64,000 bases of DNA from NCBI GenBank assembly GCA_963921275.4, contig OZ001293.3, positions 6,080,001 through 6,144,000 of the forward strand. Direction: 5' to 3'. Below, piece by piece: positions 9,364 through 20,844 of this stretch. Under the pieces are notes generated by a model. That model saw only the letters and a program-made list of their open reading frames with translations. It ran no database searches and was not told where the DNA came from. Source of the DNA: an uncultured Hormoscilla sp. (GTDB lineage Bacteria; Cyanobacteriota; Cyanobacteriia; Cyanobacteriales; Desertifilaceae). Each line of letters starts with the position of its first letter. The stretch's first letter is position 1. Position numbers and translations under genes: made by a program.

Positions 9364-9690
9364 TTAAATCCTTTTTCTCAGGTTTTTGACTAAGTTAGGA
9401 TAAAGTTTAGTTAATGTTTCCTGTTTCGGCTCATCTTCTACCAGTGAATCTTCGCTTGCTGATATTTCCGTCACTACCGCATCTGTGATATCTGGATAAT
9501 ATGCGCACCAATTGCTAATTGCATCCGCCACTTCCTGATTTGACGCCTTTTTTAAATCTGCCATCAGATCATCCAGTTCCCCTATCGCTTCAACCACCTC
9601 AACCTCTTCAAATAATTCTGGTTGCCATTCAAATACTCGCAGAAACGCTGCAATAAATTCTTCATCTTCTGTCATTGCTAACTTCTCCAT
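9364..9690 (-). CDS. Hypothetical acidic protein
   Basis: 108-aa ORF with GAGG RBS. Confidence 0.6.
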   Translation of the reverse strand: MEKLAMTEDEEFIAAFLRVFEWQPELFEEVEVVEAIGELDDLMADLKKASNQEVADAISNWCAYYPDITDAVVTEISASEDSLVEDEPKQETLTKLYPNLVKNLRKRI

Positions 9691-9751
9691 TTTTCCTCAT
9701 GGTTGTTTTCAGTATTTCCTGGTTTGGAGCCTGTTCATAGCATTCTCTAAT

Positions 9752-9852
9752 TATAGCATTTCTCGAAATTATGAGGTACAGCCGCCAGTGATGAAAACCA
9801 GTGATGGCAATGCTTTCACTGTACCTCACCTTATTTATTGAAAAATGCTATA
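9752..9852. mobile_element. MITE with TATAGCATTT(C/T)TC inverted ends
   Basis: 13-bp near-perfect terminal inverted repeats plus an internal inverted pair TGAGGTACAG/CTGTACCTCA. Confidence 0.65.
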
Positions 9853-9970
9853 TTTTTGCTCTCATATCACCTGCTCTAGGGCCTACTGACAACTCACTAC
9901 TCACTACTGACAAGCTCCCCTGTAGTCATCAGTTGTTATTATAGCATAACTAACAACTAGCAACCACAGA

Positions 9971-11764
9971 TTATAACATCACGGGCATCCGTTGGAGAAC
10001 ACCCAGACCTAATTCTTGTTCCGATAGCGATCGCACCTCAAACAAAGCTAGCATATCTTTCAACTGAGGATTTCCCTTAGAAGCCCCCTTCATCCCCATG
10101 GCAATAATCAAACCGCAGCAACCCTTAGTTTTTTTACAGCGATCGTCCCATTTTTGTCTAGCTGCAGTATGAACCGAACTGAACTCAAACTCTTCAAACA
10201 AGTATAAATCCCCATCACCCGTTTGAAATATCCCCAAATCGAAGCTCTTGTCACTGTAGGGGTCTTCTCCTGGGTTAAAGCCAATTCCTTCCAGACCTTC
10301 AGCCGTTTGCAAATTCTGAATCAAAGCCTTTGCCTTCGGCTTAGAGGTTTGAACGATCACCACTGGCAGACCATCTCCAACTGTGGGAATCTGCTTTCGT
10401 GCCGCCTGATAGAAGTAAGCAGTTTTTCTTAATTGTTCTATACCCTCCCATGATACTACACATATACTACTTAGATAATTATCTGGGATCAGATCTTCCC
10501 GCAATAGGGGCATTTGCAGATCCCACTCATCGGAATCTTCATCGCAATCTTCATCGGAATCAGCTTCCATTACTGAAGAAACCATTTCAAACAGTTCCGC
10601 TGCTATATCCGGCAGAGTGGCAACCTTCACCTGAACTTTTTCTGCCGCCTCTTCGGCATCCGTTTGCGGTGTCTCTTCTTTTGTGCGCTTAGCGCTCCCA
10701 GGAGACACCGGAGGCAGGGTAATATTATATCGATTATTCAGGGCTGGAAACTGCTCGACCGTAATTTTTTTGCGCGAGGACTTAATAAAGCGACCTAGAG
10801 CTTCCAGCGCCACATACATGACCAGAGCCTCTTCTTCGTAGATAATTGACCGCAACCCCTCTAGTGGGTGTAAAGTCCCAAAATTCGGATCTATTTCTGA
10901 GAAGGGCAAGCTACCCAAATCCCAAGAAGACTCGTCGGAGTCAGCTAGTTCCGACTCATCGGAGAGTTCAAAAGTCAAGAACAGGCAATCTTGCTTGAGG
11001 AAGGCTTCTTCCAGCTTTTCGAGCGAGTCATGGGCCCATACCGCTGCCCGAAACTGCTTGAGAGAATCCAAGGACCGATATAGCAAAATGCCATATTCTT
11101 CACCCAGCATCCCCATCACTGAGACATAAAGGGTGCTCACATCCCAGCGGTTGAGTTCGATCGATAATACTTGGTACTCAGCCAAGATGTCCCAAGGACT
11201 CGCCTGCCAAATGTTACGTGCTTTGGAGAGCAACCCTTGAGCATACTGCGGCGGCAGTTGAGGAGGTCTGGTGATGAACTCCGATTGTAACTCTCGGAAC
11301 AGCCGATCGATCAGGGGCAGATTTGGCACATAGTCAATGGCAATGTCGAGGTCTTGGAGGACCCCTCGCAGGTAGAACTGGATTTCTCGATCGCGGACTA
11401 CTATTTTTTGGGGTAGGGCTGGTTTGGCCGGGCCCTGGGGATACTCGATCGCCCTGAGCAATGTCCGTACCACCACTTCTAGCCCTATCTCCGGTGCTAC
11501 CATATCCATTGACCGGACAATGCCTTCCGAGCCATCCACCCAAATAATGCATTCCCCTTGCGCCTCTGAGGGGACTTCTAGTTCATTGCCCTGTTCATCG
11601 ACAACCGGCAGACCAGCTGATATGGTGCGTCGATCGCCCTCCCAGACGCTGGTGATTTGTGGGAGTTTTTGCAGGCGACGGCATGTAGAGCGATTCAGAG
11701 TAGTCATAGACTCAGATTTATTGGGTACAAACGGGGGAGAAGCCAGCTGTGAGGTCAACCGCAT
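9971..11764 (-). CDS. Conserved cyanobacterial hypothetical protein (DUF6930-like)
   Basis: RRLQKLPQITSVWEGDRR, WVDGSEGIVRSMD and SVMGMLGEEYG motifs; long intact ORF. Confidence 0.8.
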   Translation of the reverse strand: MRLTSQLASPPFVPNKSESMTTLNRSTCRRLQKLPQITSVWEGDRRTISAGLPVVDEQGNELEVPSEAQGECIIWVDGSEGIVRSMDMVAPEIGLEVVVRTLLRAIEYPQGPAKPALPQKIVVRDREIQFYLRGVLQDLDIAIDYVPNLPLIDRLFRELQSEFITRPPQLPPQYAQGLLSKARNIWQASPWDILAEYQVLSIELNRWDVSTLYVSVMGMLGEEYGILLYRSLDSLKQFRAAVWAHDSLEKLEEAFLKQDCLFLTFELSDESELADSDESSWDLGSLPFSEIDPNFGTLHPLEGLRSIIYEEEALVMYVALEALGRFIKSSRKKITVEQFPALNNRYNITLPPVSPGSAKRTKEETPQTDAEEAAEKVQVKVATLPDIAAELFEMVSSVMEADSDEDCDEDSDEWDLQMPLLREDLIPDNYLSSICVVSWEGIEQLRKTAYFYQAARKQIPTVGDGLPVVIVQTSKPKAKALIQNLQTAEGLEGIGFNPGEDPYSDKSFDLGIFQTGDGDLYLFEEFEFSSVHTAARQKWDDRCKKTKGCCGLIIAMGMKGASKGNPQLKDMLALFEVRSLSEQELGLGVLQRMPVML

Positions 11765-11780
11765 ATTTTAATCTTAATCT

Positions 11781-14183
11781 ATTAAACTAAGCAAGGATGT
11801 CACCATCCCTGCTCGTCTTCAGAACCGGACTTGACACTTTCACGTCATCCGGCTCCTCAGTAACGCCACCTTTATCATAGGTACGGCTTTGTTTACTACC
11901 ATCGCTGGCAGTCTTTATATCGTGGCAATGTCTGTGTAGTAACTGTAGGTTGTCGTACCGGTCCTTACCCCCTAATGAGAGAGGCTTGACGTGGTCAACT
12001 TCCCACTTGTCACAGTCCATAAACGTTAGTCCGCAGTGTTGGCATTTCCCTTTTTGTCTCTTGAGTAGTGTTGCTACCCTCTTACTCAGCTCGGGGCTTT
12101 TGCCTAACCTCGTACTCCAGTATGTAAGGTTCCCGTCGTATGGGCTTACTGTACCTTTCACTTTTATGTGTCTGATTATCTCAGTTTCGGAGTGTTTACA
12201 CAGCGTTATTTCATCCTCTCCTACCTTGCACCGGAATCGCCATTTACCATCCTTATTTAGAGACCAGTATTTGCGGGCAATCCAATGACTTGATTTTTTG
12301 GGATGTCTTCTTTTTGCCCACTGCCATAGGATGTTCCATAGGTAGTTATCCATGCTTGCGTAAGTCTCCGAACTCACCGCCGCCCTGTAGTAGTTTGACC
12401 ATCCCCGTATTATCTGGTTTAGTCTGCTTATCAAGGCTGCTTGAGATGCTGCTTTATGGCTGGCCACCATTTCTGATAGCCGTTCTTTATACTTCCCTAT
12501 GGATTTATTACTGGGTTTGATTAGGGTTTTGAATCCTAGGGGTATTCCGTGCGTTGATTTGCCGGTTCTGTATTTACTCACCTCATATTGCCTTATGTTG
12601 AATCCCAGGAAATCGAATCCCGGATTTTTTCCTTTTAGCGTATGAGTTATTTTTGTCTTTTCGGCTTTCAACTCTAGCCCCATTCCTTTTAGCCACTCCG
12701 CCACCGCTGTCTGCGCTCTGCCTATCATCTCCTTGTCTTCGTGCATTATCACAAAGTCATCGGCATACCTGACTACTGTCAGCGTCTGCTTTTCCTTTTG
12801 TGTCCTGGCGAGTTTCTTCACTGCCTCCTCTAACCGGTGTAGGGCTATGTTGGCCAGCAGTGGTGATATGACTCCCCCCTGGGGTGTCCCCGCCTCGGTT
12901 GCATGCCATTCCCCTTTGTCCATCACCCCGGCTTTTAACCATGCCCGTATTTGCTTACGGATTGGTGATGTTGTATTCAGTTTTTCCAGTAGCGCTCTGT
13001 GGTTTATCTTGTCAAAGCATTTTGCAATATCGGCATCCAAGACCCACTTGGGTTTGTACCTGATGCTTAGGAATATTGCTTCAATTGCATCGTGGCATCC
13101 CCTACCCGGTCTGAACCCATAAGAGTTCCCTTCCATATGCGCCTCCCATTCCGGTTCGAGCGCAATCTTGAGGAGCCCCTGTGTCGCACGGTCGTACATC
13201 GTTGGTATTCCTAAAGGACGCTTCTCCTCTCTCCCCGGCTTTGGTATCCATACACGACGTGTAGGTTTGGCCTTATTTGAGATTTCAATTTGTCTTACCA
13301 GTTCTGAGCGTTGCTTTGGGGTCAGTGCTTTTATACCGTCCACTCCCGCCGTCTTCTTTCCCTGGTTGTCTTGAGTTACCTGTCGTACCGCTAGACTTTT
13401 GGCAGCCCGGGATTTTACCAGTAACCTTTGGAGTCTGCGAACTGGTCGCTTATTACGCCTTCCATTGCCGCTCTGTAAATTCGCTTTTGCAACTTAAAGA
13501 CTACCCGCTCCAGCCGAGGCCAGGGGCTATCCTTCCATTCATTCATCGATTCGGAAACCCTGCTCATGACGTATGCATTGCTACTTACAACTTCACAATT
13601 GACGTTACCGTGAGGGCGTCAGCATATCCCATCCATTGCAGATAGGCGTTGGCTTCTCCTCGAAATCTTTCCCAGATACAACCTGCCAAATGAAAGCAGA
13701 TGTTGCGCCTGTGGTGGCTACTCAACCTATCGACCGGTAGTTGAGAGTATGTATCTGGTTTACTTCGTTCCTCTAGATGATTGGTCGTAGTTTTAGATGG
13801 ACTCTATATGCCGGGTTTGTTGTCAGTGCTTATTGGTCGGGGACAAAACCGCCAATGACCTATATCCTTTCCCTTTTGGGCCAGCGTATTAGCCTTATTC
13901 CGCTGGTTTGGGTTGACGACACTTATGAGCCTTCGCTTTCGTTCATCATGACTACTTGCTTGACGGTGACCGGTTTTGGCTACCAGTCAGGGCGCCTTTC
14001 TCTCCCGCTTTACGGATTGATGCCATCGCTACCGTCGGGTGAGTGCTGTCACTCCTGCACCTAGAGGGGTGGGCTTTCACCACCATCATCTAGAAGTTAT
14101 CAGGGCTAATGGAACCCTGCCAGTGGTCCCTCGCCGGTGTTCCTCTATTGGTTCACCGGTGATTTACACTGAACGAATCGCAC
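11781..14183 (-). mobile_element. Group II intron (IIB, chloroplast-like) with RT/maturase/HNH ORF
   Basis: 5' GTGCGATTCGTTC; domain V GAGCCGGATGACGTGAAAGTGTCAAGTCCGGTTC; domain VI ending ...TTTAAT; EBS1 UUGUCC (13841-13846) pairs with 5' flank GGAUAA. Confidence 0.95.
11787..13567 (-). pseudogene. ltrA: Group II intron reverse transcriptase/maturase with a frameshift near 13460
   Basis: MSRVSESMNEWKD..WPRLERVVFKLQKRIYRA in one frame and VRRLQRLLVKS..TAGVDG..PQGG..YADD..HNH in another; the two frames differ by 2 nt. Confidence 0.9.
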
Positions 14184-14316
14184 TTATCCAGACCCACCAT
14201 AACAAAATCATACTCTCTGCTGCCACCATCAGCAGTTAATTCCCGAGCCGCCACAACCGGAGTTCCTCGATAGAATAGACAGAAGGATTTATACTGCGTT
14301 AGGAGTACGGCCAACG

Positions 14317-15572
14317 ATGACACAAGCAACTCAAGCTCAACAACGAGGCATCCTGATGACGGCAGCTGCCAAAGAGCATATGCTCGGACTACGGGAAAAA
14401 CAAGGGAAAGACCTCTGTCTGCGGGTTGGAGTCCGCCAGGGGGGTTGTTCGGGATTGTCCTATATGATGGATTTTGAAGACCCCAGCCAGATATCAGAGT
14501 CCGATAAGGTCTATGATTATGATGGCTTCGTGCGATTCGTTCCGGTATAAGCCAGTATGGTGAAAATCGGGTCTGGTTCCATTAGCCAGATAACTCTGGT
14601 AATCATGGGGGTTAAATTCCCCTCCCCCAGGTGCGGGGGTGACACCGGTCCTCGGTGCTGCGGAGCCACATCACCGTGGTGCTAAGCGAGGACTCAAATG
14701 AGGATAGCTGGCAGCCTAAGCTGGCAACTCCACTAGGAAAGAGGCTCATGGTCAGAACAAACAAATCTCCGTAAGTATCGTTACATAGAACCAGCGAAAA
14801 GGCTGATTGCGCTGGCCCAAAAGGGAAAGCAGTTCGCGTATCAATGCTGTGGCCTCATTGATATCGTACCCGCTCAGGACTGCCGGTATAGAGGAGAGAC
14901 CTAAAAGCCTCGCGAAATGATACCAGGGAACGAAGTAACCCCTCGTGTGCTGTCCAATAGGACCAGTCAGATGTGAAGCGCAAGCCACGAGCGGGAAAGA
15001 TGGCCCGAGAAGCTAATGCCTGGGCGGTGTCTTCCGCATGCTCTTGTCCTGAAGGACAAGAGCATGCGGAAGACGCCGGGTAATGCTCATGGATATGCTG
15101 ACGCGGGTCGGTGATATCAGGAAACTACTGGTATAAGTAACCTCAAAACGTCATAAACCCGTCCGCAACGTATAGCGCAAGCGAGTTGAGGATTGAGGGA
15201 TGTATAACTGGTAAAACGGACACGCAAATGGTGATCCTAAAGGTTTTTTAAAGCCACTCACCAACCAGGAAAGGGGCTAAATTGCAAGTAGTAAGGGCCA
15301 ACGGCGAGTAATCCCTAGTAAGCCTACCCATGTCAAGGGCCTGGTACCCAGTAGCCGGATGCGATGAAAGTCGCACGTCCGGTTCCGAACGGGAGGGTTG
15401 GGAAGCGATTCTCAGCTCGACCCCTAATCAGGTCGTCTGCGACCCCAAGAGCCTCCTCTATCTCTATGGCTTGCAGCTGGACTACAGCGATGCCCTCATT
15501 GGCGGTGGCTTCCAATTCACTAACCCCAATGCTACCCAGTCCTGCGGTTGCGGCAAGTCCTTTTCTGCCTAA
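14317..15572 (+). CDS. iscA: HesB/IscA Fe-S assembly protein, two exons (14317-14529 and 15429-15572)
   Basis: Spliced product reads ...GGCSGLSY...[20 protein letters not shown]...[14 protein letters not shown], in frame, 118 aa. Confidence 0.95.
14530..15428 (+). mobile_element. ORF-less group II intron inside iscA
   Basis: 5' GTGCGATTCGTTC; domain V TAGCCGGATGCGATGAAAGTCGCACGTCCGGTTC; domain VI ending CCCCTAAT; removing it restores the iscA frame exactly. Confidence 0.95.
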
Positions 15573-16596: not shown

Positions 16597-19500
16597 TAGC
16601 CATCAGCTTCAGCCGCCAAAGCATTATCAATACAAGTCTTTAACCTGTCTGCCAACACCCGCACATGAGGTTCGGCCAGCATACTAAAGTGGTCGCCGGG
16701 AACTCTGATGAGCTCGATAACGTGTTTTTCCCAACCCATTGCTGGGCTGCCTCAAATAAATCGGCAATGTTACTTCCCGGACACGACCTAACAGTTCTCG
16801 AACAGTAGGATTACCATTCAGGTTAGTCCGCAGCACTACGGTGTTGATGAAAAATCCAATCAGTTGCTCGATTTCCGGTCGATTGCGACCTGCTACCGGA
16901 GTGCCCAGGACGATATCTTTACTCCCAGCGAGACAGCAACAGCTTGAATGCTGCTAGTAAGGTCATAAAGACTGTGACTCCTTCTTGTTGGCTTAATGCT
17001 TTGATAGATTGACTTAAGGTTTGAGAAAGGAGCAGAGATTGCTTTTGACCTGTAAAGGTTTGGACTGACGGGCGAGGTCTGTCTGTGGGTAGTTCCAGTA
17101 AAGGTGGCGCACTTGCTAATTGTTGTTTCCAATAGTTGAGTTAGGTTTCCTTGAGGTTTCCCTGGAACCACTCTCGCGGCCACAGTGCATAGTCCGCATA
17201 TTGAATTAGCAAGTCGGCGTCGGGGGACTTTTGGCCACTGCTTCTAGCTTCATACAGTGCCGATAATGAGTGCCATAATACCCCCATTGACCAACCATCG
17301 GAGATGATGTGATGCATGGTTAGCATCAACACATGGGATTGGCAATTCAGTTGTAGTAAGGTCACCCGCAGTAGAGGAACGAACTCTAAATCAAAAGGTT
17401 TTTGAGCCTCTTGTATGACTAGGCGCTGGACTTCCGCCTCCCGTTGAGCCTCTGGCAACTGTTGTAGGTCCATGAGGGATAGGGGAGTTGGCGTGGTCGA
17501 GGCAATTACCTGAATGGGAACCCCATTTTCGCTAGTGAACCTTGTCCGCAGAATTTCGTGACGGCTGATGATTTCCTCGAGGGCAAGTTCTAGAGACTCG
17601 ACCGATAACTTTCCTTCCAGTCGCCAAGCACTGGCTATATTGTATGTAGCGCTTTTTCCTTCAAGTCGATCGAGAAACCAGAGTCTTTCTTGGGCAAAGG
17701 AGAGGGCTAGTTTGACATCTGCTGTTCTGGGCGTGATGGTTGATGCTGGGACATTTCCGGCTGTTTGACGAGCTGTTTCTATGACTTGAGCGAGTTCCGC
17801 TACGGTGGGCGCTTCAAATAAATGGCGCAGGGGTAATTCTACTGAGAATACCTCCTGTATCCTGCAGATGACTTGAGTGGCTTTGAGGGAATGTCCTCCT
17901 AATTCAAAGAAGTTGTCATAGATGCCGATTTTTTTCCTGACGAGAACTTGACTCCAAATTGCAGCTAGCAGTTCTTCTGTGGGACTGCTGGGCGGGACAA
18001 ATGTGGTGTCACTGGCGGCTGAAATATCTGGTGCTGGCAACCCACGGCGATCGACTTTGCCATTGGGAGTTAGGGGCATTGCTTCCAAAAGAACGAAGGC
18101 GGAAGGCACCATATAGTCGGGGAGTTTGCTCTTGAGTAAGTCCCTCAAGTTGCTAATGGTGAGTTCAACCTTGCCAACGACATAAGCAACGAGACGTTTG
18201 TCGCCAGGTAGAGGCGAGAACCCGGGGAGTTGCTAAAGGGTTGGGAATGAATTTTTGTGCGGTTAGGTTTGGGCGGCCCTTATAGCCTCGGGCTAAACCA
18301 GCACCTCCGATATGCATTTCACCGGGAACGCCGATGGGTACTGATTGGAGATGGCTGTCTAGGATGTAAATTTGAGTATTGGCGATCGGACGACCAATGT
18401 GAGGCGACACAAAATCTCGATCGTCAGATATAACCAGTCCAGAAGTCGTCACCACGGTATTCTCAGTTGGCCCGTAGTTGTTAACCAACTTAAACGAAAT
18501 AAAATCGTCCGGAAAGCGAGAAAGTTTATCTCCACCTGTCAGCATAATTCGCAAAGCAATATTTGCTCGCCAATCCAGAGATAGCAACTTTTATGCTAGT
18601 GGTGTAGGGACAAAAGTAATTGTTATTTGCTTTAACAGGAGCCAATCGCGCAGCTTTTCTGGGTCGAGAATATTCTCAGCTTTCACCAGATAAATAGTGG
18701 CTCCGGCTGTTAGGTAAGGCCACAATTCCCATACGGCAGCATCAAAAGCTGTTCCGGCTATCTGAGTGGATCGGTCTGATGAAGCGATCGCAAAATTTAT
18801 TTGGTGCCATAAAACTAAGTTTATAAGTCCCGAGTTCCGAATTAAAACTCCTTTAGGTCTGCCCGTTGAACCCGATGTGTAAATTACAAAAGCTAAGTTG
18901 TTAGCTTTTGTTTTATTGACAGGGTTCTCTTGACCTTCTGAGGCAATAACATCCCAATCGGAATCCAACAAAATCACCTGGGCAATACTTGAGGGGAGTT
19001 CGGAAACCAACTTAGATTCTGTTAACAAAACTGGCACTTCCGAATCTGACAGCATATAATTCAAGCGCTCTGTCGGATAATTAGGGTCTAAAGGCACATA
19101 AGCACCACCGGCTTTGAGAATCCCCAAGAATCCCACCACCATATCAATGGAACGTTCTACACAAATCCTCACCAATACTTCCAGGCCTACTCCTAGAGAT
19201 TGTAAATAATGTGCAAGTTGATTCGCCCGACTATTTAACTGACGATAGGTCAATTGCTCATTTTCAAATACCACTGCCACCGCATCTGGTGTGCGCTCTA
19301 CTTGCTCTTCAAATAACTGATGTATGCACTTGGACTGAGGATAATCGGTCTGAGTATTATTCCACTCCACCAGCAGTTGGTAGCGTTCTTCTGGGGACAG
19401 TAAGTTTAAGCGAGCAATCGGTTGGGTTGGGTCGGTAGCAATGGCACTAGCAAAAATGGCAAACTGGCATTGCATTCTGGCAATGCTCTGCGAGTCAAAT

Positions 19501-20844
19501 ATTTTCGGATCGCAGACCCAGCAGCATTCTGTTCCCTCTTCCGGCAGGACAACGGTGAGGCAACTCTCAGACTCGCTCGAAATTTCATAATTGTCTAATT
19601 TCCTGACCCGTTCCACCACAACTGAGAATCTAGGCGTCTTTTTTAGTTCTGGTATCCGGGCAAAAATATCGCGTCCATAAGTCTTGTGCTGTCGGATTGT
19701 GTTGAGTTCATGCCCTAGGGTATTGAGCAGTTCTTCAAAGTTTTGTTCCGAGTCTATCTCGATGCGTAAATGGATTGAGGAGGCAAAAAAGCCCTCTACC
19801 CTCGCCCACTCTCGTTGCCGCTCATCTGCGTACCCGATATCGAAACGTTTCGTTGCGCCAATCCGAGACAAATAGCCCACAAAAGCCGCCAAGAGGAAGT
19901 CTGCTACGCTCCAACTTCTCTGACACCACTCCCAGAAAGTCAACAGTTCCTTGGATAAAGTCATCTGTCGGCTCTCGGATTCTCTGGGCTGACCGAACGC
20001 TCTAGCCAAAGCTGCATATGGCAACGAGACAGGTTCCAATGTCGTTAGCCTTTTGACCCAGAATGCTTCATGCTAGCAAATTTCGCGATCGCATTGAGAT
20101 AGATGCACTGCCAACTCTGGCGATCGGTCTGCTAAACGATATCCTTCATACAGCCCGGATGAAAGCATCGATCTCCTCGGCACGTCGGTTCCAGGAAATC
20201 ACGCATCCTGCCTCCGGTCTCTGATAGCGTCCGAAATAGCTGCGATCGTCCAGCTTTTGTTTTCGTGGCCAGACTCCACCGGAAGATAGCTCGTCAATTA
20301 ACTGCGTAAAGGAATCGATCGCCGCATCATAACATTTTACATTCAGAGTCAAGGCGGTTTCCTCGGGTGCGATGTCGAGTACAACCTGTTTGAGAATATC
20401 CCCTGTATCAACTCCCTCGTCCATCTGATGCCAAGTAATCCCATGACTTTTCTCCCCATACATCAATGTCCATGAAGTTGCATGGACTCCCGCATATTTC
20501 GGCAAAGGAGCATCGTGGTAATTTATGGCACCCAATCGCGGCAACTCTAAGACCTTTTTCTTTAAAATGTAGGAATTTACGATACTAAACAGAGAATCAA
20601 ACGGTTGCTGGCTTAAAAACTCGGTAATTTCCACCGATGGCCGATCCTGATTTCGGTAAGGTATCCCTCGTTCTTTTGTCCAGTCACCGATTAATGAATC
20701 TGAGGAGACCACACCGCCTATTTTATGACCGCGAGCTAAAATAATTTGGGCACATTGGATGGGTAAACTTCCCTAGCCAATAATAAAACAGCTAAAAATT
20801 TTCCCTCTCGGCTTTTCTGTCCTTTGATTCTCTGTTCGCTTCAT
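16597..20844 (-). pseudogene. NRPS relic: formyltransferase - C-like linker - A - T - C - (deletion) - TE tail
   Basis: INYHDAPLPKYAG and DEGVDTGDIL (formyltransferase); [11 protein letters not shown] and NYGPTE (A); FFELGGHSL (T); MHHIISDGWS (C); VPGDHFSMLAEPHV (TE end); stops at 20773, 18591 and 17141 plus frameshifts. Confidence 0.9.

What the first reader, a model, noticed from the sequence alone, without database searches (positions are those of the whole stretch)
14317..15572. ORF-less group II intron precisely splitting the Fe-S assembly gene iscA
Seen: an 899-nt intron (GTGCG...AAT, intact domains V and VI) with no intron-encoded protein sits between codons 71 and 72. Both exons are free of lesions and rejoin into a canonical 118-aa IscA. 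A candidate EBS1 (GUGGCC in the loop at 14849-14854) pairs 5 of 6 with IBS1 GGCUUC. Established: bacterial group II introns rarely occupy conserved housekeeping genes. Inference: full-length IscA requires splicing, either self-splicing or with a maturase acting in trans, so splicing could gate Fe-S biogenesis.
Basis: partly seen in the sequence, partly recalled or inferred. Interest (0 to 1): 0.8.

Follow-up and report, generated by a model that had tools for sequence, protein, structure and literature searches.

The report
Protein-less intron splits sufA and enolase
A protein-less group II intron sits exactly between two codons of an iron-sulfur carrier gene, a near-identical copy splits the genome's only enolase gene, and both likely get spliced out as members of a genome-wide swarm of such introns rather than acting as a switch for iron-sulfur assembly.

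Summary
Observation confirmed: an 899-nt ORF-less group IIB intron (14530-15428) lies after codon 71 of an intact 118-aa A-type Fe-S carrier. Four of four same-genus genomes have the empty site with the exact junction. A copy identical at 897 of 899 bases splits the single enolase, a gene essential in Synechococcus elongatus, so this RNA most likely splices. The intron is a recent arrival from a swarm of about 384 group II introns (most ORF-less; 83 of 306 non-nested ones in frame in sense ORFs), likely mobilised in trans by RTs of another intron lineage. The 'gate on Fe-S biogenesis' is not supported: the host looks like five-cysteine SufA, dispensable in model cyanobacteria; a paralogue is intact; the insertion is strain-specific. 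No splicing was shown: the one RNA contig with joined exons is probably an intron-less allele. ORF-less introns in core genes are known from Trichodesmium. This scan reported the swarm before, from other windows of this genome.

The parts
14317..14529 (+). Exon 1 of the A-type Fe-S carrier gene (codons 1-71; Cys34, Cys44)
   Evidence: 96-99% DNA identity to three congeners, 89% to the fourth
14517..14522 (+). IBS2 (-13 to -8), pairs 5 of 6 with EBS2
14524..14529 (+). IBS1 (-6 to -1), pairs 5 of 6 with EBS1
14530..15428 (+). ORF-less group IIB intron, 899 nt, phase 0; twin at G000:C1:1800238-1801136 in enolase
14783..14788 (+). EBS2 (ACAUAG)
   Evidence: this alignment column set pairs with target -13..-8 in 106 of 138 cells over 23 families; shuffled mean 55, max 73 of 2000
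14849..14854 (+). EBS1 (GUGGCC) in the 9-nt loop 14847-14855 of the ID3 hairpin
   Evidence: 111 of 138 cells pair; shuffled mean 67, max 86; hairpin fold
14891..14891 (+). EBS3 (G), pairs with C at +1 of exon 2
   Evidence: best column of the alignment: Watson-Crick with exon +1 in 21 of 23 families once 3' ends were corrected
14998..14998 (+). gamma (A) in J2/3, pairs with the last intron base U15428
   Evidence: best column: Watson-Crick with last base in 22 of 23 families
15023..15349 (+). Domain IV, short and non-coding
   Evidence: fold; no RT remnant
15026..15077 (+). 24-bp hairpin inserted in domain IV; member of a small dispersed palindromic repeat
   Evidence: 81 merged loci match it in G000, most outside catalogued introns
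15351..15387 (+). Domain V, paired, AGC triad at 15353-15355, GAAA loop, AC bulge
15391..15423 (+). Domain VI with predicted branch A at 15420 (ninth base from the end)
15429..15572 (+). Exon 2 (codons 72-118 and stop; Cys75, Cys110, Cys112)

Best explanation
The element is an ORF-less group IIB intron that recently inserted between codons 71 and 72 of a SufA-type Fe-S carrier gene and likely splices out of the mRNA, restoring the 118-aa protein. Its EBS1, EBS2 and EBS3 match the flanking exon bases (shown). It likely arrived by reverse splicing and reverse transcription with an RT-maturase borrowed in trans from the genome's RT-bearing introns, which belong to a different RNA lineage (inferred). 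The same RNA also landed in the single enolase gene, so splicing is likely efficient enough for an essential enzyme. It is best read as a tolerated selfish passenger, not an evolved regulator.
For: Shown: exact empty sites in 4 of 4 congeners for sufA and for this enolase position. Twin copy differs at 2 of 899 bases; contigs of X3-X5 cover that stretch at double depth and read the enolase-copy letters throughout, so the copies may be identical. All three target sites that use these guides (sufA, eno, an antisense site at C1:1436761) reach 5/6 + 5/6 + C; 1,812 of 13.76 million positions do so by chance. Enolase is single-copy, its halves match TIGR01060 1-255 and 265-419, and catalytic motifs fall on both sides. 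eno is listed as essential in S. elongatus PCC 7942 (PMC5464585 supplement file 6 row 124). Population signal: 83 sense, 40 antisense, 183 intergenic of 306 non-nested introns against 77/86/137 of 300 random positions (sense vs antisense p=1.3e-4). Against guide-matched empty sites, antisense is depleted for family 1 (21 vs 2, p=0.003) and sense is not depleted. The single zwf is split in sense at Pfam position 137, whereas the antisense hit in a phosphoribulokinase-like gene fell on a decayed second copy. Precedent: ORF-less introns mobilised by driver IEPs (PMC2882425); 10 of 17 in vivo spliced Trichodesmium introns lack an ORF (PMC4649490).
Against: No spliced read from an intron-bearing strain. 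The one joined contig (X1, RNA library) has a base of another allele and no matching intron contigs. Guide pairing is 5/6 at both EBS1 and EBS2, with one G-U each at the sufA site. The predicted branch A is ninth from the end, one further than the usual IIB spacing (recalled). The sense/antisense contrast is not significant for the largest family (38 vs 23, p=0.07) and rests on my own ORF classifier. The helper RT is not identified: similarity to RT-bearing introns is limited to stretches of 58-126 nt. Exon dN/dS has little power because the insertion is so recent.
Confidence: 0.8

Rival explanations
1. Regulatory gate: splicing is condition-dependent and has been co-opted to control SufA and so Fe-S supply.
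For: Full-length protein needs splicing. sufA deletion gives chlorosis under iron limitation in a model cyanobacterium (PMC7058544 passage).
Against: Insertion absent from 4 of 4 congeners; same RNA in enolase; intact paralogue; SufA mutant without visible phenotype in normal growth; nothing host-specific in the intron sequence.
Confidence: 0.05
2. The intron splices poorly or not at all; sufA is in effect knocked out, and enolase loss is tolerated through relaxed selection in a symbiont or through uninterrupted chromosome copies not shown in the assembly.
For: 40 antisense in-ORF insertions persist in this genome, so gene loss is tolerated often. SufA is dispensable. No spliced read. G000 enolase has 5 private amino-acid changes.
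Against: No stop or frameshift in either host gene; private enolase changes 18 synonymous to 5 non-synonymous, within the range of congeners (13/0, 17/5, 13/9, 11/0). No empty-site joint in X3-X5 (contigs drop rare variants). The intron copied itself recently, which needs an excised active RNA. A congener carries a different intron in its enolase.
Confidence: 0.08
3. The RNA splices without any maturase in vivo and uses an RT only for its rare jumps.
For: None of the 373 ORF-less-type domain V hits follows an RT match of this lineage; relatives in two other genera also lack an RT upstream; compact well-folded RNA. C.te.I1 is a protein-free precedent (PMC4424553 passage).
Against: ORF-less bacterial introns nearly always share a genome with IEP-bearing ones, and trans action is shown in cyanobacteria. 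This rival differs from the best reading only in the helper step.
Confidence: 0.15
4. No splicing is needed: the genes are made as two pieces, the second started at an ATG inside the intron (15330) that is in frame with exon 2.
For: An 80-codon ORF 15330-15572 runs from domain IV through DV/DVI into exon 2; the same holds for the enolase copy (open frame of 204).
Against: The 39-codon open end with Met is shared by unrelated families and so looks incidental; no clear ribosome-binding site by eye; the start would lie just before two stable hairpins.
Confidence: 0.03

Closest known systems
[quoted passage not shown]
   Same: Cyanobacterial, ORF-less, inside conserved genes (dnaN x4, nrdJ, thymidylate synthase); thought to use trans-encoded maturases.
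   Different: There splicing is shown in vivo for 17 introns in 10 genes; here it is inferred. Hosts here are sufA and eno, the insertion is strain-specific, and the family is far larger.
Thermosynechococcus elongatus TeI3 (ORF-less) / TeI4 (RT-bearing) introns (PMC2882425 passages)
   Same: ORF-less copies outnumber RT-bearing ones, diversify by EBS change, and are mobilised in trans by driver IEPs; twintrons occur.
   Different: TeI3 arose by deletion from a TeI4-like parent and keeps ORF remnants; few sit in genes. Here no RT remnant is found, DV/DVI differ from those of the RT-bearing introns, and about a quarter of copies are in frame in sense ORFs.
Arthrospira platensis group II intron expansion (101 copies, PMC8919778 passages)
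   Same: Large cyanobacterial expansion of group II introns.
   Different: About 384 paired introns here by my own pipeline, 314 of them 1.2 kb or shorter; methods and datasets differ, so the comparison is rough.
Cyanobacterial SufA (Slr1417 type) and IscA A-type carriers (PMC7058544 passages)
   Same: PF01521 / TIGR00049 family; five Cys as described for SufA.
   Different: No direct alignment to Slr1417 was made; the assignment rests on Cys count and on the paralogue being closer to 1X0G.

Membership tests
Group II intron | Domain V with catalytic triad and bulge, domain VI with unpaired A | tested here: met
   RF00029 45.0 bits; folds
Group II intron | 5' GUGYG and 3' AY ends at exact exon boundaries | tested here: met
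   empty sites in 4 of 4 congeners
Group II intron | Six-domain secondary structure | tested here: met
   MFE fold z -5.2; domain folds; alignment with 22 other families. DIII is weak (-2.7 kcal/mol).
Group II intron | gamma-gamma' pair | tested here: met
   22 of 23 families
Group II intron | Splicing of the precursor RNA | tested here: inconclusive
   joined contig only in X1, likely an intron-less allele; reads on the enolase locus were not obtained
Subgroup IIB | EBS1-IBS1, EBS2-IBS2 and EBS3-IBS3 exon recognition | tested here: met
Subgroup IIB | Branch A eighth from the 3' end (recalled) | tested here: inconclusive
   predicted A15420 is ninth; the same spacing holds across the ORF-less swarm after end correction; branch point not mapped
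ORF-less, trans-mobilised intron (TeI3-like) | No IEP in domain IV | tested here: met
ORF-less, trans-mobilised intron (TeI3-like) | Recent copies at unrelated guide-matching sites | tested here: met
ORF-less, trans-mobilised intron (TeI3-like) | Derived from a close RT-bearing intron of the same genome, with ORF remnants | tested here: not met
   no RT remnant; only 58-126 nt stretches shared with RT-bearing introns; distinct DV/DVI
ORF-less, trans-mobilised intron (TeI3-like) | A genomic IEP promotes its splicing and mobility | not testable with these tools
   11 uninterrupted candidate RT frames exist; needs an assay
A-type Fe-S carrier (IscA/SufA/HesB) | PF01521 domain with Cys and C-terminal CxC | tested here: met
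   Cys44/110/112 conserved in 80 of 80 orthologues
Cyanobacterial SufA rather than IscA | Five cysteines; distinct from the IscA paralogue | tested here: met
   five Cys, extra two kept in 66 and 73 of 80 orthologues; paralogue closer to 1X0G; criterion from PMC7058544

The most novel reading that the evidence does not exclude
This free cyanobacterial genome has reached an organelle-like state: a standing lineage of protein-less group II introns, with no RT-bearing parent of its own, has spread to some 300 copies on RTs borrowed from another intron lineage and now interrupts single-copy core genes (eno, zwf), so the host depends on a small shared pool of trans-acting maturases. The sufA/eno twin is a ready test pair: one ribozyme in two exon contexts.
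Probability: 0.4. Interest if true: 0.7.

Novelty: new member of a known kind. Interest (0 to 1): 0.42.

Why it matters
As a single locus it is one more ORF-less intron in a cyanobacterial gene. Its value lies in the twin in enolase: it turns 'can a protein-less intron of this swarm splice in vivo?' into a direct test on a gene the cell probably cannot lose, and it shows how a host can become dependent on trans-acting maturases, the step proposed between bacterial retroelements and organellar or spliceosomal introns. It also means gene callers will miss or fragment dozens of working genes in this genus. I found no paper on it: 'Hormoscilla' + 'intron' gave 0 papers; 'group II intron' + 'sufA' gave 2 listings, neither reporting such an insertion in what I read; 'group II intron' + 'enolase' + 'interrupted' gave 5 listings, the one read concerning reverse splicing into L. 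lactis enoA mRNA. The library lacks most subscription journals.

Tried and rejected
In-gene counts (39/51 and 20/9 sense/antisense) are void: they used 3' ends one or two bases short for 294 introns; the error showed when the EBS3 test failed and was fixed. X1 joined contig as proof of splicing: rejected; 1 difference (15470 C>T, also in G003's empty allele), no X1 depth in two intron bins, listed intron pieces differ by 2-8 letters, and a 42.6-kb record suggests DNA in the run; about 1 in 4 that it is a spliced product (my estimate). Only 4 of the 8 runs listed were laid; RNA run X2 was not examined, and no reads were laid on enolase. The neighbouring RT intron as helper: unlikely, its ORF is frameshifted after codon 54. 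Antisense intron in phosphoribulokinase as an essential-gene knockout: rejected, an intact copy exists. Promoter/terminator scan gave chance-level results. The 80 orthologue loci are the best-scoring of 526 and favour uninterrupted genes, so they do not show that the site is empty elsewhere. dN/dS is uninformative for so young an insertion. Two primary papers were not held, so SufA mutant data come from a review and essentiality from a secondary table; that table gave one HesB-family gene as non-essential, and I could not tell which paralogue it is. A sequence look-up in earlier findings returned nothing.

Full report
Observation. The window holds an 899-nt insertion at 14530-15428 that begins GTGCG and ends AAT. 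Removing it joins codons 71 and 72 of a 118-aa protein without lesions. The exons match consecutive parts of TIGR00049. Rfam RF00029 scores 45.0 bits on the 3' end; domain V is paired with an AGC triad and domain VI has an unpaired A; the RNA folds far better than shuffles (z -5.2). All three sense frames are full of stops and no RT remnant is detectable. Four of four same-genus genomes have the uninterrupted gene with identical junction bases, which fixes the boundaries and dates the insertion as recent. Contigs of three runs of one study carry both junctions unchanged. The two closest named records for the protein are Hormoscilla sp., so the genome is probably of that sponge-associated genus (habitat recalled and from earlier notes).

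Exon recognition. I tested the guide positions by covariation over 23 intron families of this genome. The EBS1 columns (14849-14854) pair with each family's -6..-1 consensus in 111 of 138 cells (shuffled mean 67, max 86); the EBS2 columns (14783-14788) pair with -13..-8 in 106 of 138 (mean 55, max 73). After correcting 3' ends, column 14891 pairs with exon base +1 in 21 of 23 families (EBS3) and column 14998 with the last intron base in 22 of 23 (gamma). This is a IIB pattern. At the sufA site the pairing is 5/6, 5/6 and G-C; only 1.3 in 10,000 genome positions reach that.

The twin. A copy identical at 897 of 899 bases lies in phase 0 in the enolase gene at G000:C1:1800238-1801136. Contigs of X3-X5 cover the two differing bases at twice the flanking depth and read one version, so the copies may be identical. 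Enolase is single-copy; its halves match TIGR01060 1-255 and 265-419 and share the catalytic motifs between them. The gene is listed as essential in S. elongatus (PMC5464585, supplement rows only). Three congeners have uninterrupted enolase; the fourth is empty at this site but carries a different 2.46-kb RT-bearing intron 89 bases downstream. A third element shares the first 494 bases at 97.6% and the same guides, and sits antisense in another gene.

The swarm. Pairing 460 5' ends with domain V/VI hits gave 384 introns, 314 of them 1.2 kb or shorter, with families of 143 and 71 near-identical copies; 76 5' ends and 72 3' ends stayed unpaired. Of 487 domain V hits, 373 are of the type found here, 91 of the RT-bearing type, 23 other; none of the first type directly follows an RT match, apart from one misclassified element (middle of that output was cut). 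Eleven catalogued introns have uninterrupted RT frames of 591-609 codons with YADD (11 of 18 listed; I dropped 4 with nested introns and 3 shorter than 590). In 200 genomes of the order, 6 matched the 3' end; two from other genera that I inspected had no RT within 1.5 kb upstream, one had a more distant RT-bearing intron. Of 306 non-nested introns of plausible length on C1, 83 rejoin a sense ORF, 40 an antisense ORF and 183 neither; random positions give 77/86/137 of 300. Against empty guide-matching sites, antisense insertions are depleted in family 1 (p=0.003) but only weakly in family 0 (p=0.07); sense insertions are depleted in neither. Sense hosts include the single zwf, a glutamate synthase large subunit, recJ and queG. 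This is what one expects if sense copies splice out and antisense copies cannot.

Host gene. The protein has Cys at 34, 44, 75, 110 and 112, conserved in 66-80 of 80 orthologues. A review states that cyanobacterial SufA has five Cys and IscA three, and lists the sufA mutant as without visible phenotype while sufB, C and D are lethal; it notes chlorosis under iron limitation (PMC7058544, passages). A second, intact carrier at C1:1315135-1315443 is the closer match to T. elongatus IscA. No amino-acid change is private to the intron-bearing allele.

Mechanism. Shown: anatomy, guides, empty sites, recent duplication, single split enolase. Inferred: transcription of sufA gives a precursor; the intron folds, pairs with IBS1-3 and splices, probably with an RT-maturase supplied in trans; the excised RNA with that RT reverse-splices into guide-matching DNA, which explains both insertions. 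Not shown: any spliced RNA. One RNA-library contig (X1) joins 14529 to 15429, but it carries a base seen in another allele and the run lacks matching intron sequence, so it is most likely an intron-less relative. Reads on the enolase locus remain unexamined.

Comparison. It works like the ORF-less introns of T. elongatus, which are spliced and mobilised by driver IEPs (PMC2882425, passages), and like those of Trichodesmium, which are spliced in vivo from dnaN, nrdJ and thymidylate synthase (PMC4143802, PMC4649490, passages and Table 2). A review calls ORF-less bacterial introns rare and notes cyanobacterial housekeeping insertions (PMC4424553, passages). The published maximum is 101 introns per genome (PMC8919778, passages). 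It differs from TeI3 in having no detectable RT-bearing parent in its genome. Supplements of these papers were not read except for PMC5464585.

Verdict. Real, well formed and most likely spliced; a new member of a known kind. The Fe-S gating idea is unlikely (0.05). The enolase twin is the more telling locus. Earlier notes of this scan already describe the swarm; my counts were made before reading them and agree. Interest 0.42.

Noticed in passing
window 11781-14183 (-): RT-bearing group II intron (RT, maturase, HNH) 133 bases upstream of sufA, absent from 4 of 4 congeners, inserted 16 bases before the ATG of a DUF6930/DUF7309 gene; its ORF is frameshifted after codon 54.
   Followed up: yes
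G000:C1 genome-wide: Most ORF-less introns end four bases after the domain VI C-run, in CC or CT rather than AY, which puts the predicted branch A ninth from the end; supported by EBS3 and gamma covariation.
   Followed up: partly
L031 (G004:C14, about 9458-11915, -): A congener has an independent RT-bearing group II intron (608-codon frame) in its enolase after base 881.
   Followed up: partly
window 15026-15077: Palindromic 52-nt hairpin in domain IV belongs to a small dispersed repeat with 81 loci in the genome, in variants and tandem forms, mostly outside catalogued introns.
   Followed up: partly
G000:C1:6446752-6447684, 5580677-5581511, 5887449-5888241, 2638282-2639152: Sense in-frame ORF-less introns in zwf (single copy), glutamate synthase large subunit, recJ and queG.
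   Followed up: partly
G000:C1:4362037-4362907: Antisense intron in a second phosphoribulokinase-like gene that also has stops; the intact copy is at 5358187.
   Followed up: yes
window 14246-14247: Three congeners have about 54 extra bases here in the sufA upstream region; G001 and the window lack them.
   Followed up: no
G001-G004: Intron load is genus-wide but uneven: 127, 86 and 119 RF00029 matches of 150 scored candidates in G002-G004, 2 in G001, 0 in G005 of another genus (assemblies differ in contiguity).
   Followed up: partly
G000:C3: A 31-kb contig with 17.6% GC, unlike the 42-49% of the others; possibly foreign to this genome.
   Followed up: no
window 17141-20712 (-): Fragmented non-ribosomal peptide synthetase-like ORFs, named by eye from translations.
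   Followed up: no
L129, L130 (G063, G078): The same domain V/VI type occurs without an RT upstream in two other cyanobacterial genera; L130 has a GTGCG start about 815 bases before its end.
   Followed up: partly
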